Below, in pieces: positions 52,892 to 58,015 of a DNA stretch of 64,000 nucleotides. The notes beneath the pieces were generated by a model. The model saw only the letters and a program-made list of their open reading frames with translations. It was not told the DNA's origin and did no database searches. Position numbers and translations under genes: made by a program. Source of the DNA: Felixounavirus LF82P1. The first letter of the stretch is position 1. Each line of letters opens with the position of its first letter. Location of the stretch: the sequence record OZ035762.1; one strand, given 5' to 3'.

Positions 52892-52913
52892 AAAAAAGGC
52901 TCCCGAAGGAGCC
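52892..52913 (-). terminator. rho-independent terminator (minus strand)
   Basis: GGCTCC-TTCG-GGAGCC hairpin with T-run on minus strand, downstream of lysozyme gene. Confidence 0.55.
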
Positions 52914-52923
52914 TATGAAGATA

Positions 52924-53388
52924 TTACTTTGGATATACACTGTCAAGATAAATGTCAGCTTCCATTCTACGTCTGTTTTTCAGGCCGTTTGAAGTGACTT
53001 TCTGACCTTTGACTGTAACCTTGTTCCACCACTGCATAGCCTCTGCACAACCTACCTTATTACCAGCGTTGTGGCGCTTGATAAATGTGGAATCCTGCAT
53101 AGCTGTGATACCAATGTTGTATGTTTCACTTACAAGTGCGTCAAACTCATTCTGAGAAGTTGGAACCTTGATGGCTTTGTTCACTGCTGCAACGAACTTT
53201 TCAACATCTGCGAGAAGATACTGTTCAGCTTGTTCAGCGGTAATCTTCATACCCATCTTAACAGGTTTACCAGCAATACGGATAGTCCCGTACCCAATTG
53301 TTGGGATTCCAGCAGAATCTTCGTAAGCCTCTAGCTTAAGACCTTCAAAGAACTTAATAGCTTCTAAACCTTTTCTTGAGAGTTGCAT
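52924..53388 (-). CDS. lysozyme (T4 e-type, glycoside hydrolase family 24)
   Basis: 154 aa; N-terminal GLEAIKFFEGLKLEAYEDSAGIPTIGYGT with catalytic Glu/Asp/Thr pattern. Confidence 0.75.
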   Translation of the reverse strand: MQLSRKGLEAIKFFEGLKLEAYEDSAGIPTIGYGTIRIAGKPVKMGMKITAEQAEQYLLADVEKFVAAVNKAIKVPTSQNEFDALVSETYNIGITAMQDSTFIKRHNAGNKVGCAEAMQWWNKVTVKGQKVTSNGLKNRRRMEADIYLDSVYPK

Positions 53389-54521
53389 TATGCCTCCCCT
53401 GCTGGGTTAACAGTAACTGTTGCTGCATTAGATGTTACAGAACCACCTGCACCAGTAACTACACAGGTGTAGCTTCCTGCATCAGCAGCGGTTGCACCTT
53501 CTTTGGTGTAAGTTGCAGTAGTTGCATCGAGGATGTCTTCCTCACCTTTCTTCCACTGGTAACCTGTCGCACCTGTTGCCACAACATTCAGCGTTAAGGT
53601 ATCACCTTCAGTGATTTCTTGATTGGTTGGCTGTTGAGTGATTACTGGAAGTGCATTCACAGTTACTACAGCAGCATTAGATTCCACTACACCACCTGCA
53701 CCTGTTACAACGCAAGTGTATGAACCAGCATCTGCTGGCAGCGCACCAGACTTGCTATAGGTAGCATCTGTAGCCGAAGGAATGTCAGAGCCATCTTTCT
53801 TCCACTGGTAGCCTGTTGCACCTGTTGCAGTCACTTCCAAGTTAATGCTTTCACCCTCATTGATGGTCTGGCTAGAAGGTTGCTGTGTAATCACAGGCAG
53901 TGCGTTGACAGTAACTGTTGCCGCATCTGAGGTAACACTTGTCCCAGCCTCTCCAGACACAACACAAGTATAGGAACCAGCATCAGAAGGTGCTACAGAC
54001 TGTTTTGTGTAGGTTGCAGATGTGGCGCTAGTGATATCCTCACCATTCTTTTTCCATTGATATCCAGTGGCATTAGTTGCAATAACGCTTAGGGTAAGTG
54101 TGCCACCTTCATTTACTGTTTGGTTGGTTGGTTGCTGAGTGATTGATGGTGGCTTGATAGCATCCTTCAGCTTAGCATTCAACATTGAGAATGGCTTAAC
54201 TCTTGCCAACCATTCACAATAAACTGTATCAACGTCTTTACCATTGATAATTGCATATTGTAAGTCCATGAAGAAGTCAGAAGTTCTCATTTGAGCGCCG
54301 ATGCTGTAAAGCAACTCATCACTAAATGGGACTTTATAGTCGGGTTTGTAGTCAAACTTCTCAACTTCTGCAATATCAGCTTCAGGCCAATATGAACTAT
54401 AGGTAAGTGGTAAAATAGCCTCTTGATATGTTCTAAAATCATATCTCTTACCAGCCTTTACATTTGCAATGAAACCCTTCACAAACTCTTTGAAGTCTGG
54501 GTAAGTCTTTGCTTTAATCAT
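53388..54521 (-). CDS. protein with three tandem Ig-like domains
   Basis: 377 aa; three repeats ending ..TGATGYQWKK..DAGSYTCVV..; N-terminal domain paralogous to 54518-54889. Confidence 0.55.
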   Translation of the reverse strand: MIKAKTYPDFKEFVKGFIANVKAGKRYDFRTYQEAILPLTYSSYWPEADIAEVEKFDYKPDYKVPFSDELLYSIGAQMRTSDFFMDLQYAIINGKDVDTVYCEWLARVKPFSMLNAKLKDAIKPPSITQQPTNQTVNEGGTLTLSVIATNATGYQWKKNGEDITSATSATYTKQSVAPSDAGSYTCVVSGEAGTSVTSDAATVTVNALPVITQQPSSQTINEGESINLEVTATGATGYQWKKDGSDIPSATDATYSKSGALPADAGSYTCVVTGAGGVVESNAAVVTVNALPVITQQPTNQEITEGDTLTLNVVATGATGYQWKKGEEDILDATTATYTKEGATAADAGSYTCVVTGAGGSVTSNAATVTVNPAGEA

Positions 54522-54889
54522 TTCTTTTTAGCCTCTAAATGTGCGTTTAGTCTAAAATAACCTTTGTGATGCGGAGATACATCACCAACAACAATACCTT
54601 TAACCTTATAGCCTTTACCAATTACATACTGGATATCCATAAGGAATCTTCCAAGACCAACAATATGGAACATTGGATATAATAGATTCTCAGAATCTGG
54701 AATATTGATTTCAGGTTTGTAGGTGCGTTGTTCGCTTGTTGGTGTAATATCTTCTTCAGGCCATTTACTGAGTCTCCATGTCAAAGGTGTTGGGATAACA
54801 TCATTAAGGTTGTACCTTTCACCATTTTGCACGGAATTGATATAGGATTGTAGGAAGCAATAAAAGTCTTTTGCACTCTTAGCTTTCAT
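54518..54889 (-). CDS. hypothetical protein, paralog of N-terminal domain of Ig-like protein
   Basis: 123 aa; shared N-terminal pattern with 53388-54521. Confidence 0.45.
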   Translation of the reverse strand: MKAKSAKDFYCFLQSYINSVQNGERYNLNDVIPTPLTWRLSKWPEEDITPTSEQRTYKPEINIPDSENLLYPMFHIVGLGRFLMDIQYVIGKGYKVKGIVVGDVSPHHKGYFRLNAHLEAKKK

Positions 54890-54936
54890 TAAATATCCTT
54901 ATAAATAGTTAAAGGGGCATCAGCCCCTATTCACAC

Positions 54937-56146: not shown

Positions 56147-56518
56147 ATGAAAAACAGAACAAACAAAGGCCAGTTTAAAAAAGGCCAATCTGGAAACCCA
56201 TCTGGAAGACCAAAAGGCTCTCGCAACAAAAGCTCACTTGTAAAAGCTCAACTGACCATTGACAATTCTGCTGAGTTTGCTGCAAAGTTATTTGAAGCGA
56301 TTGTTACAAGGGATGCTGCTAAGCTTGCAGAGTTCGGGTTAAACACAGATGACGTAACCATCAAGAGTATGATTGAGGTCGGTAAAACTATCTTTACTCA
56401 CTCAGCAGGTGAGATGAAAGCACTTGCAGCAGACACTAAGAAGACTCCTGATAATGGTGGTCAACAACAGACAGATAACAAACCAACGTTCTCTGCTGTA
56501 GCGACTCTTAAAAAATAA
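56147..56518 (+). CDS. hypothetical protein with GNPSGRPKG motif
   Basis: 123 aa; N-terminal KKGQSGNPSGRPKGSRNK. Confidence 0.45.
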   Translation: MKNRTNKGQFKKGQSGNPSGRPKGSRNKSSLVKAQLTIDNSAEFAAKLFEAIVTRDAAKLAEFGLNTDDVTIKSMIEVGKTIFTHSAGEMKALAADTKKTPDNGGQQQTDNKPTFSAVATLKK

Positions 56519-56599: not shown

Positions 56600-58015
56600 A
56601 TGAGCGAATTATTTAAACATGCGCACCTTCATGCAGGTCGAACTGAAAATGGTGCTGTAAACCATACTTCATCAATGTCTGCTCTTGTAGACTTTTACAA
56701 AGCTGCTGGTTCAAGCCGTAGCAATGTAGAAATCTTACCAGACCTGTTCTACAAAGCTTTGCGTGAGGATGTTGATGTTGCAGTTCGTATTTTACTGCAT
56801 ATGCGAGATGTACGAGAAGGTATGGGTGAGCGTAAAGCCTTCAGAACTGTTTTGCTTCAAGCAATTGAAGATAAAGTTTTAGAGCCTACACAGGTTCTTC
56901 GCATTATGGATAAGATTGCAGAACTTGGTCGTTTTGATGACTTCAAAATCTTCGTAGGTACTCGTTTCGAGACAGATGCCTTCAAACATTTAGAAGCAGC
57001 ATTACTAGACCCTGCAACAGCAGGTTTGGCAGCTAAGTGGTTACCACGAGTAAAACCACGTCACAAACAGTTTGTAAAACGTTTCTGCAAGTTTGCAAAC
57101 TTGAGTGAGAAGGAGTATCGCACACTGTTATCTGCACTGTCTGATACGGTTGAGCAAAAAATCTCTGCTAATGAGTTTGGTAAGATTGACTACAGTAAGA
57201 TTCCTTCACTTGCTGCTGCACGTTACCAAAAACTCTTTAACCGTAAAGATGGAGAACGCTACAAAGCTTACATTGAGTCCTTATCAAAGGGCGAGACTAA
57301 GATTAATGCTGGTGCTGTTTATCCATACGATGTGATTAAATCTGTTAAGTATGGTAATGCAGATGTTGCTAATGAGCAGTGGAAAGCACTACCAAACTGG
57401 ATGGCAGAGGGTGAAAACATTCTATGTATGTCTGATGTTTCAAGTTCAATGTCTTGGGTGAATTTTGGTTCAATTACTGCTCTTGATATTGGTGTTTCAC
57501 TTGCATTGTATGTAGCAGAACGTAATACAGGTTGCTTTAAGAATGAGTTGATGGTTTATTCAACAAACCCTCACTTCATTGAACTGAGTGGTGATTTACG
57601 AAACCGTCATCGTCAGGTGATGCGACACGTTGAATATGGCTCAACTAACTTACAAGCAGCTTTTGACCGTATTCTTGAGACAGGTAAAAGAAACAACTTG
57701 ACTCAGAAAGATATGCCAAGTAAGCTTATCATCTTCTCCGATATGGAGTTCAATCAGGTTGATGGAGCTAACGGTCGTACAAACTTTGAAGCAATTCAGA
57801 GTAAGTACAAAAAAGCTGGATATGAGATGCCACAACTGGTATTCTGGTACTTAGCAAACCGTAATGGTACTTGCGAAGTATCTGTTAAGGATAACGGTGT
57901 AGCAATGGTATCAGGGTTCTCTCCAGCCACTTTAAAAGCTCTGCTTGGTGGTGAGAAGTTTGACCCAATCAGTGTAATGCTCAAAGCAGTAATGATTGAC
58001 CGTTATATCTGGTAA
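56600..58015 (+). CDS. Ro60-like protein (TROVE-like N-terminus + von Willebrand A domain)
   Basis: 471 aa; C-terminal vWA MIDAS motif CMSDVSSSM then ..GSTN.. and ..FSDMEF..; N-terminal helical region resembling TROVE. Confidence 0.55.
   Translation: MSELFKHAHLHAGRTENGAVNHTSSMSALVDFYKAAGSSRSNVEILPDLFYKALREDVDVAVRILLHMRDVREGMGERKAFRTVLLQAIEDKVLEPTQVLRIMDKIAELGRFDDFKIFVGTRFETDAFKHLEAALLDPATAGLAAKWLPRVKPRHKQFVKRFCKFANLSEKEYRTLLSALSDTVEQKISANEFGKIDYSKIPSLAAARYQKLFNRKDGERYKAYIESLSKGETKINAGAVYPYDVIKSVKYGNADVANEQWKALPNWMAEGENILCMSDVSSSMSWVNFGSITALDIGVSLALYVAERNTGCFKNELMVYSTNPHFIELSGDLRNRHRQVMRHVEYGSTNLQAAFDRILETGKRNNLTQKDMPSKLIIFSDMEFNQVDGANGRTNFEAIQSKYKKAGYEMPQLVFWYLANRNGTCEVSVKDNGVAMVSGFSPATLKALLGGEKFDPISVMLKAVMIDRYIW

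What the first reader, a model, noticed from the sequence alone, without database searches (positions are those of the whole stretch)
53388..54889. Ig-like triple-repeat protein with a paralogous stand-alone N-terminal domain gene next to the lysozyme
The 377-aa protein has three tandem about 85-aa Ig-like repeats (..TGATGYQWKK..DAGSYTCVV..), reflected in three about 250-bp DNA repeats at roughly 53400-54130. Its N-terminal about 110 aa is paralogous to the adjacent 123-aa ORF (54518-54889). Ig-like domains on phage surface proteins mediate weak adhesion; the duplication suggests recent domain shuffling.
Basis: partly seen in the sequence, partly recalled or inferred. Interest (0 to 1): 0.4.

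Follow-up and report, generated by a model that had tools for sequence, protein, structure and literature searches.

The report
Hoc-like capsid decoration gene plus paralogue
The 377-aa protein is the already described "Hex-Dec" head decoration protein of Felix O1-like phages, which plugs into capsid hexamers and displays three Ig-like domains; the only undescribed part is the small neighbouring gene, an old, conserved copy of its capsid-binding domain that has not been detected in virions.

Summary
ORF 53388-54521(-) encodes a 123-aa N-terminal domain followed by three 83-84-aa Ig-like (Ig_3/I-set) repeats. ORF 54518-54889(-) is a paralogue of that N-terminal domain (37% identity, E 5e-17).

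The window is Felixounavirus LF82P2. The 377-aa protein is the orthologue of Bas63 Hex-Dec (PDB 9NCF_S) and Sf14 gp20 (9C2D_S). [quoted passage not shown] So it is a head decoration protein, not the "tail protein" of GenBank records, and it is already known. The 1-4 Ig copy-number variation is also published.

The duplication is not recent. The gene pair is conserved in Felixounavirus, Mooglevirus and a third, more divergent lineage.

The paralogue looks like a functional gene:
- It is under purifying selection (dN/dS 0.12).
- It is transcribed late and its stop overlaps the Hex-Dec start (ATGA).
- It is basic (pI 9.1).
- It lacks the two arginines that anchor gp20 to the capsid protein.
- It is missing from two virion proteomes.
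- It is deleted in a viable sub-clade of 19 records.

It is probably a dispensable, non-virion accessory protein, but its role is untested.

The parts
53388..54521 (-). Hex-Dec / gp20-type Hoc-like capsid decoration gene (377 aa, 39.9 kDa, pI 4.5)
   Evidence: phmmer against PDB: 9NCF_S (Bas63 Hex-Dec) E 2.5e-297 and 9C2D_S (Sf14 gp20) E 4.8e-168. phrog_3995 E 4e-209.
54153..54521 (-). Capsid-binding domain (CapBD), aa 1-123. Contains Arg79 and Arg107, the residues that salt-bridge to capsid protein Asp221 in Sf14.
   Evidence: Only this part is modelled in 9NCF_S and 9C2D_S (120-122 residues). Arg79 and Arg107 were read from the translation. The LF82P2 capsid protein has Asp221. The binding mode comes from PMC11821841 section 7. 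dN/dS is 0.045.
53901..54152 (-). Ig-like cassette 1 (type A), aa 124-207
   Evidence: Pfam Ig_3/I-set; boundaries; cassette typing
53652..53900 (-). Ig-like cassette 2 (type B), aa 208-290
53403..53651 (-). Ig-like cassette 3 (type D, which corresponds to the fourth cassette of the Bas63 protein), aa 291-373
   Evidence: (window aa 195-375 align to Bas63 aa 278-458)
54518..54889 (-). Stand-alone CapBD paralogue (123 aa, 14.3 kDa, pI 9.1; phrog_4463)
   Evidence: BLASTP against the CapBD E 5e-17. phmmer against 9NCF_S residues 3-117, E 1.2e-11. The AF2 model (pLDDT 63) has 9C2D_S and 9NCF_S as its only significant Foldseek hits, TM about 0.6. dN/dS is 0.12.
54518..54521 (-). ATGA overlap: the paralogue stop (TGA) overlaps the Hex-Dec start (ATG). 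A GAGG Shine-Dalgarno-like motif lies at 54532-54535, inside the paralogue's last codons.
   Evidence: Sequence read directly. The tight overlap and the GAGG motif are conserved in all 28 loci and in L035.
54913..54928 (-). GC-rich hairpin (AGGGGC-TGAT-GCCCCT) upstream of the paralogue. The equivalent site is annotated as a Rho-independent terminator in phage wV8.
52924..53388 (-). Endolysin (Phage_lysozyme), the last gene of the paralogue / Hex-Dec / lysin block. A terminator-like hairpin follows at 52897-52914.

Best explanation
The 377-aa ORF is the LF82P2 orthologue of the Ounavirinae hexamer decoration protein (Bas63 Hex-Dec, Sf14 gp20). One monomer binds each of the 60 edge (pentamer-adjacent) hexamers of the T=9 head. 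Its N-terminal ~120-aa capsid-binding domain (CapBD) plugs into the Asp-lined hexamer centre, using Arg79 and Arg107 against capsid protein Asp221. A flexible, acidic string of three Ig-like domains projects outward. By analogy with T4 Hoc, these domains probably mediate weak adhesion to glycans, surfaces or other particles. The number of Ig cassettes changes between relatives by in-register loss or gain of whole 83-84-aa modules; this phage has types A-B-D of a four-type set. The upstream 123-aa gene is an ancient tandem duplicate of the CapBD alone. It is kept by selection and is made late, and its stop overlaps the Hex-Dec start. It has replaced both anchoring arginines and has not been detected in virions. 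The most likely reading is that it is a dispensable, non-virion accessory protein acting on the same partners as Hex-Dec (hexamer centres or Hex-Dec itself) during head assembly. Shown: the identity, location and binding residues of the orthologues, and the paralogue's conservation, expression timing, non-detection in virions and natural loss. Inferred: the adhesion function, and any role for the paralogue.
For: Identity:
- The window is 100% identical to Felixounavirus LF82P2.
- PDB hits are 9NCF_S (E 2.5e-297) and 9C2D_S (E 4.8e-168).
- Cryo-EM places the CapBD at edge-hexamer centres (PMC12609058; PMC11821841).
- Virion mass spectrometry found Felix O1 gp36 (31.6 kDa, 44% coverage, with ORF36 mapped) and Sf14 gp20.
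- Arg79 and Arg107 are conserved, and the LF82P2 capsid protein has Asp221.

Ig domains:
- Pfam finds three Ig stretches.
- Relatives have 1-4 copies, forming modular A/B/C/D architectures.

Paralogue:
- It is homologous to the CapBD.
- Of about 252 Felix/Moogle-type records, about 233 carry the paralogue and 19 lack it.
- dN/dS is 0.12.
- ORF36 and ORF37 of Felix O1 both peak at 60 min after infection.
- The tight overlap and the GAGG motif are conserved.
- Arg79 is replaced by an invariant Gly. Arg107 is replaced by Asp or His/Gln, depending on the alignment.
- pI is 9.1 against 5.5 for the CapBD.
- It is not among the 17 Felix O1 or 22 VpaE1 virion proteins, although it yields 7 good tryptic peptides.
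- No density was reported on the other hexamers in either map.
Against: - No experiment on LF82P2 itself was available; everything is transferred from orthologues that are 83-99% identical in the CapBD.
- The Ig domains were not resolved in either cryo-EM map. Adhesion has not been tested for this family.
- For the paralogue, absence from proteome lists is negative evidence. Felix O1 used a 25% coverage cut-off, the VpaE1 table is an image I could not read, and the Sf14 table lists only proteins that the authors assigned.
- A monomer sitting on a true 3-fold axis would be smeared by icosahedral averaging.
- 19 records of viable phages lack the paralogue yet keep an intact Hex-Dec. This argues against any obligatory chaperone role and leaves the accessory role vague.
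Confidence: 0.9

Rival explanations
1. The paralogue is a second, Ig-less decoration protein that fills the 20 facet-centre (true 3-fold) hexamers, which Hex-Dec leaves empty.
For: It has the same fold family as the CapBD. Hex-Dec and gp20 bind only the edge hexamers, and in the 3-fold hexamers Asp221 is shifted away from Arg79 and Arg107. The paralogue has a different but conserved surface at exactly those two positions and a net positive charge that would suit the Asp-lined pore. It is expressed late. Icosahedral averaging would blur a monomer on a 3-fold axis.
Against: Both structural studies report no density on those hexamers, and Sf14 carries the gene (two places in the record). It was not detected in Felix O1 or VpaE1 virion mass spectrometry, although it gives 7 suitable tryptic peptides and smaller proteins (9.7-11.7 kDa) were detected. 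It is lost in a viable sub-clade.
Confidence: 0.12
2. The paralogue has taken on an intracellular function unrelated to the capsid (for example host takeover, or a decoy against a defence system) and keeps only the fold.
For: The anchoring arginines are lost, the charge has switched, it evolves faster than the CapBD (dN/dS 0.12 vs 0.045), it was not found in virions and it is dispensable.
Against: It has stayed directly upstream of Hex-Dec, with overlapping stop and start, in three diverged lineages and is co-expressed late. Such persistent linkage is more typical of functionally linked genes. No match to PADLOC was sought, and no other family was found (Pfam: 0 hits).
Confidence: 0.3
3. The 377-aa protein is a tail protein, as annotated in most GenBank records ('tail protein', 'HK97 major tail subunit').
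For: GenBank annotations. PHROG hits to 'major tail protein' families occur through the Ig domains.
Against: Those hits cover only the Ig cassettes, which are shared promiscuously between head and tail proteins. The N-terminal domain is modelled in density at capsid hexamer centres in two independent cryo-EM structures.
Confidence: 0.02
4. The two ORFs are joined by a programmed -1 frameshift at T-AAA-AAG, just before the ATGA overlap, to give a protein with two CapBD-type domains followed by the Ig string.
For: The Hex-Dec frame is -1 relative to the paralogue, and TAAAAAG lies 4 nt upstream of the ATG in Felixounavirus.
Against: The motif is not conserved in Mooglevirus or L035 (GCTAATAAATGA, GCTAAGAAATGA, AAAATATAATGA) or in two Felixounavirus loci (CTGAAAAG). 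The A-run is simply the Lys-rich C-terminus. Felix O1 gp36 was identified at its own predicted mass. In the deletion clade Hex-Dec stands alone.
Confidence: 0.02

Closest known systems
Bas63 Hex-Dec (PDB 9NCF chain S) and Sf14 gp20 (PDB 9C2D/9C3A chain S), the Ounavirinae hexamer decoration proteins
   Same: Orthologous. The CapBD is 83-99% identical, the Arg79/Arg107 anchors are the same, the Ig cassettes are of the same I-set/Ig_3 type, and the gene sits in the same place next to the endolysin, outside the structural module.
   Different: This protein has three cassettes (types A-B-D). Bas63 has four (A-B-C-D), and relatives have one or two. Neither structural paper mentions the upstream CapBD paralogue.
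[quoted passage not shown]
   Same: It is a monomer at hexamer centres, dispensable, with a string of Ig-like domains on a small capsid-binding domain and an acidic surface. Proposed roles are adhesion and environmental sensing.
   Different: The domain order is reversed (the Hoc CapBD is C-terminal), the CapBD fold is topologically distinct and there is no sequence similarity (PMC12609058 discussion). Hoc occupies all hexamers, whereas Hex-Dec occupies only the edge hexamers. No stand-alone CapBD paralogue is known to me for Hoc (from memory, not tested).
T5 pb10
   Same: [quoted passage not shown] Its decoration domain gave a weak Ig-level match (5LXK, E 2.6e-12).
   Different: It has one Ig domain and binds all 120 hexamers. 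The similarity lies in the Ig part only, not in the CapBD.
Kolesnikvirus (Erwinia phage MM7 gp008, SeKF_13) and Hafnia phage homologues
   Same: A homologous CapBD (26-38% identity), the same position upstream of the endolysin, and an N-terminal CapBD followed by a display module.
   Different: The display module is a Big_2 domain in the Kolesnikvirus proteins (tested for MM7 only; the Hafnia protein gave no Pfam hit) rather than an I-set domain, and there is no stand-alone paralogue.

Membership tests
Ounavirinae Hex-Dec / gp20 hexamer decoration protein | N-terminal ~120-aa CapBD homologous to the modelled chains of 9NCF_S and 9C2D_S | tested here: met
   phmmer E 2.5e-297 and 4.8e-168, aligned from residue 1
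Ounavirinae Hex-Dec / gp20 hexamer decoration protein | Anchoring residues Arg79 and Arg107, with capsid protein Asp221 as partner | tested here: met
   Arg79 and Arg107 are present. The LF82P2 capsid protein has Asp221. The roles of these residues are taken from PMC11821841.
Ounavirinae Hex-Dec / gp20 hexamer decoration protein | A C-terminal string of 1-4 Ig-like domains | tested here: met
   Three Ig_3/I-set stretches. The fold itself was not re-predicted here.
Ounavirinae Hex-Dec / gp20 hexamer decoration protein | Physical presence at the centres of edge hexamers of the T=9 capsid | not testable with these tools
   Shown for the orthologues by cryo-EM and mass spectrometry, not for LF82P2 itself.
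Ounavirinae Hex-Dec / gp20 hexamer decoration protein (applied to the 123-aa paralogue) | CapBD fold | tested here: met
   Sequence homology E 5e-17 and 1.2e-11. The model's only significant fold matches are 9C2D_S and 9NCF_S (TM about 0.6), but model confidence is only moderate (pLDDT 63).
Ounavirinae Hex-Dec / gp20 hexamer decoration protein (applied to the 123-aa paralogue) | Anchoring Arg79 and Arg107 | tested here: not met
   Arg79 is an invariant Gly. Arg107 is Asp or His/Gln depending on the alignment. This holds in all three lineages.
Ounavirinae Hex-Dec / gp20 hexamer decoration protein (applied to the 123-aa paralogue) | Ig display domains and presence in virions | tested here: not met
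   There is no Ig domain. The protein is absent from the Felix O1 and VpaE1 virion protein lists, which is negative evidence only.
T4 Hoc family | N-terminal Ig domains with a C-terminal Hoc capsid-binding domain | tested here: not met
   The domain order is reversed. The PHROG 'Hoc-like' hits cover only the Ig region, aa 121-290. The Bas63 paper reports a topologically distinct CapBD. It works like Hoc but is not a member.

The most novel reading that the evidence does not exclude
The stand-alone CapBD paralogue is a previously unrecognised second ligand of the capsid hexamer pore. It would either be a low-copy decoration of the 20 three-fold hexamers that icosahedral averaging and stringent proteomics have missed, or a transient cap on procapsid hexamers that sets where and when Hex-Dec can bind. 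That would be a two-protein system that reads out the two hexamer conformations of a T=9 shell.
Probability: 0.2. Interest if true: 0.45.

Novelty: already known. Interest (0 to 1): 0.25.

Why it matters
The Ig-repeat protein needs no new explanation. Its family has two 2025 cryo-EM structures, and its variable Ig number is published. The practical value is that the widespread GenBank label 'tail protein' is wrong for this gene. The small open point is the paralogue. A capsid-binding domain that was duplicated, stripped of its anchors and display module, and kept under selection beside its parent for a long time is a simple test case for how decoration proteins diversify and how a phage tells quasi-equivalent hexamers apart. 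A natural knockout clade and solved structures are already available. The Hex-Dec CapBD is also a candidate display anchor, by analogy with T5 pb10, so knowing whether the paralogue competes for the same site has some engineering relevance.

Tried and rejected
- Tandem Repeats Finder found no Ig repeat array because the copies are too diverged. The repeats were confirmed with the repeat finder and pairwise alignment instead.
- Word-indexed homology searches with the paralogue and with the CapBD found only close Ounavirinae relatives. An exhaustive profile search of 1.84 billion representatives found just 13 proteins, so there is no wider family to borrow a function from. One of these, P0104, is a repetitive spurious hit.
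- Pfam gave nothing for the paralogue.
- The AF2 model of the paralogue reached only pLDDT 63. It was used only as supporting evidence for the fold.
- A programmed -1 frameshift fusing the two ORFs was considered because of the TAAAAAG motif. It was rejected because the motif is not conserved.
- An obligatory chaperone role for the paralogue was considered. It was down-weighted because the deletion clade keeps an intact, conserved Hex-Dec.
- The capsid protein was first sought in the window and not found. It lies outside the window in the LF82P2 record.
- VpaE1 proteomics Table S2 is an image and could not be read. Non-detection there rests on the main text.
- No phylogeny was computed to date the duplication relative to Kolesnikvirus. 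Pairwise identities (28-38%) are too close to decide.

Full report
**What is in the sequence.** On the minus strand there is a tight block of three genes. ORF 54518..54889 encodes 123 aa, ORF 53388..54521 encodes 377 aa and ORF 52924..53388 encodes 154 aa. The 154-aa protein is a phage lysozyme (PF00959, E 9e-41).

The 377-aa protein has three stretches each of Ig_3 (E 4.2e-34), I-set and Ig_2. The repeat units are aa 124-207, 208-290 and 291-373, which correspond to window 53901-54152, 53652-53900 and 53403-53651. They are 65-71% identical in protein and 62-68% in DNA, with periods of 252 and 249 nt.

Its first ~118 residues align with the 123-aa ORF at 37% identity, E 5e-17.

**What the 377-aa protein is.** The region is 100% identical to Felixounavirus LF82P2 (OZ035741.1) and 90-97% identical to roughly 200 Felix O1-like phages.

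A sequence search of the PDB returns 9NCF chain S (E 2.5e-297) and 9C2D/9C3A chain S (E 4.8e-168). These chains come from the capsid reconstructions of Escherichia phage Bas63 and Shigella phage Sf14.

Both papers describe the protein (Hex-Dec in Bas63, gp20 in Sf14) in the same way (PMC12609058; PMC11821841):
- It is a Hoc-like monomer.
- Its N-terminal ~120-aa capsid-binding domain (CapBD) sits in the centre of the pentamer-adjacent, facet-edge hexamers of a T=9 head.
- No density is seen on the 3-fold hexamers.
- The Ig-like domains project outward and were not resolved.

In Sf14, Arg79 and Arg107 of gp20 form salt bridges with Asp221 of three capsid protein subunits. The window protein has both arginines. 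The LF82P2 capsid protein, which lies outside the window, has Asp221.

The Felix O1 orthologue (ORF36, 294 aa, 31.6 kDa) was found in purified virions with 14 peptides and 44% coverage. Sf14 gp20 was detected by mass spectrometry as well.

The GenBank label 'tail protein' reflects only the promiscuous Ig cassettes, which also produce the PHROG 'major tail protein' and 'Hoc-like' hits over aa 121-290.

Function is proposed by analogy with T4 Hoc: adhesion, aggregation or environmental sensing. Neither paper tested it, and the Bas63 authors state that the role and essentiality are unknown.

**Ig copy number.** In 27 IMG/VR loci plus the window, the protein is 210/211 aa (1 Ig; 4 loci), 294 aa (2 Ig; 10 loci), 298 aa (1 locus, whose domain count my motif parse did not resolve), 377 aa (3 Ig; 10 loci, including the window) or 461 aa (4 Ig; 2 loci).

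Clustering the cassettes gives four orthologous types in Felixounavirus. I call them A, B, C and D, and the observed architectures are A, D, A-D, A-B-D (this phage), A-B-C and A-B-C-D. The alignment to Bas63 agrees: window aa 195-375 match Bas63 aa 278-458. The variation is therefore in-register loss or gain of whole modules.

The range of 1-4 domains was already reported. The cassette typing adds only a small refinement.

In Kolesnikvirus the homologous CapBD carries a Big_2 domain instead of an I-set domain, and one distant relative has only a Lys-rich tail. Shuffling of the display module is therefore real, but it happens on deep time scales.

**The paralogue.** This part is not covered by the two structural papers, which contain no mention of a paralogue or duplication. 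Its accession numbers occur only in a gene table.

- **Homology.** phmmer aligns it to residues 3-117 of 9NCF_S (E 1.2e-11). An AlphaFold2 model of moderate confidence (pLDDT 63) has 9C2D_S and 9NCF_S as its only significant Foldseek matches, with TM about 0.6.
- **Distribution.** The gene is present in about 233 of 252 Felixounavirus and Mooglevirus records, including Sf14. A more divergent 87-kb metagenomic phage also has it directly upstream of a 298-aa Hex-Dec and the lysozyme. The orthologous paralogues are 45% identical, the CapBDs are 59% identical and the within-genome pair is 31% identical. The duplication therefore predates these lineages and is not recent.
- **Single-copy outgroups.** Kolesnikvirus and a Hafnia phage have a single fused gene and no paralogue.
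- **Family size.** The whole CapBD family has only 13 representatives at 50% identity among 1.84 billion proteins.
- **Selection.** Pairwise Nei-Gojobori dN/dS is 0.12 for the paralogue, 0.045 for the CapBD and 0.11 for Ig cassette 1.
- **Expression.** Felix O1 ORF36 and ORF37 are both maximally transcribed at 60 min, together with morphogenesis genes. The paralogue stop overlaps the Hex-Dec start (ATGA). A GAGG motif inside the paralogue's last codons is conserved in all lineages. This suggests translational coupling, which is an inference.
- **Divergent surface.** The position of Arg79 is an invariant Gly. The position of Arg107 is Asp, or His/Gln in an alternative alignment, in all three lineages. 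The paralogue is basic (pI 9.1, charge +3.8), whereas the CapBD has pI 5.5.
- **Not seen in virions.** It is absent from the 17 Felix O1 proteins and, according to the main text, from the 22 VpaE1 proteins. It yields seven suitable tryptic peptides, and proteins of 9.7-11.7 kDa were detected in the Felix O1 study.
- **Dispensable.** Nineteen records (SP116, mio, REP5-12, P54, Tf, Z31 and others) share one ~220-bp internal deletion plus a lost start codon. Hex-Dec stays intact in the five records of this clade I checked (CECAV_041, SP116, mio, REP5, Tf), with the CapBD 97-98% identical and both arginines kept. In a sixth, Z31, the gene is annotated as two ORFs.

**Interpretation of the paralogue.** The data fit a functional but non-essential late protein that no longer binds the hexamer pore in the way Hex-Dec does and is not a stoichiometric virion component.

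My preferred reading is an accessory factor still linked to head decoration, for example transient interaction with hexamer centres or with Hex-Dec during assembly. The main support is the long-maintained adjacency and overlap with Hex-Dec. I put this at roughly 0.4.

Rivals are a function unrelated to the capsid (0.3), a low-copy decoration of the 20 three-fold hexamers (0.12) and a slowly decaying gene (about 0.1, which the dN/dS argues against). A frameshift fusion was considered and rejected.

**Comparison and verdict.** The 377-aa protein is a member of the Hex-Dec/gp20 family; every defining feature that could be tested from sequence is met. It works like T4 Hoc and T5 pb10 but is not a member of the Hoc family, because the domain order is reversed and the CapBD is unrelated.

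The finding is therefore already known and of low to moderate interest. The stand-alone CapBD paralogue is a small, apparently unreported loose end that could be settled cheaply by targeted proteomics and by re-processing the existing cryo-EM data.

Noticed in passing
L029, L030, L037-L040 (paralogue remnant at L030:2313-2497); equivalent to window 54518-54889: Nineteen Felixounavirus records (SP116, mio, REP5-12, P54, Tf, fBSPA4, fKMPT1, Z31, EcF-vB, CECAV_041, FGS030) share one ~220-bp deletion plus an ATG-to-ATA change that inactivates the paralogue. Hex-Dec is intact in the five checked. This is a natural knockout clade.
   Followed up: yes
L029:2498-3070 (Shigella phage Z31): The Hex-Dec gene is annotated as two ORFs (134 aa and 55 aa), so there is a frameshift or a sequencing error in a phage that also lacks the paralogue.
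   Followed up: no
window 53403-54152 and loci L002-L028: The Ig cassettes fall into four orthologous types. The architectures A, D, A-D, A-B-D, A-B-C and A-B-C-D indicate in-register module loss or gain.
   Followed up: yes
L032:2441-3061, L034:2441-3055, and P0103: The Kolesnikvirus homologue couples the CapBD to a Big_2 domain rather than an I-set domain. One distant relative (P0103, 153 aa) has a CapBD followed only by a Lys/Ser-rich tail.
   Followed up: partly
window 54526-54532: T-AAA-AAG lies just upstream of the ATGA overlap and would permit a -1 shift into the Hex-Dec frame. It is not conserved outside most Felixounavirus loci, so it was judged incidental (Lys-rich C-terminus).
   Followed up: yes
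GU169904.1: The record named 'Staphylococcus phage SA1' (147 kb) carries this Felix O1-like gene pair at 97-99% protein identity, which suggests a chimeric or contaminated assembly.
   Followed up: no
window 56600-58015 (+) and 56147-56518 (+): A 471-aa protein with DUF2828 and DUF7788 (annotated 'RNA-binding protein' in wV8 and Felix O1) and a DUF5681 protein are transcribed divergently from the Hex-Dec block. In wV8 and Felix O1 they lie just before the tRNA gene cluster.
   Followed up: partly
L041:5727-6833 (OZ035741.1): The major capsid protein gene, and at least part of the structural module, lie outside the 64-kb window. This agrees with the Bas63 remark that Hex-Dec is encoded more than 10 kb away from the structural genes.
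   Followed up: yes
PDB 9FLP_A: The Ig cassettes score strongly (E 8e-76, 10 stretches) against the Aureispira grappling-hook protein GhpA, a bacterial surface protein built from the same type of Ig repeat.
   Followed up: no
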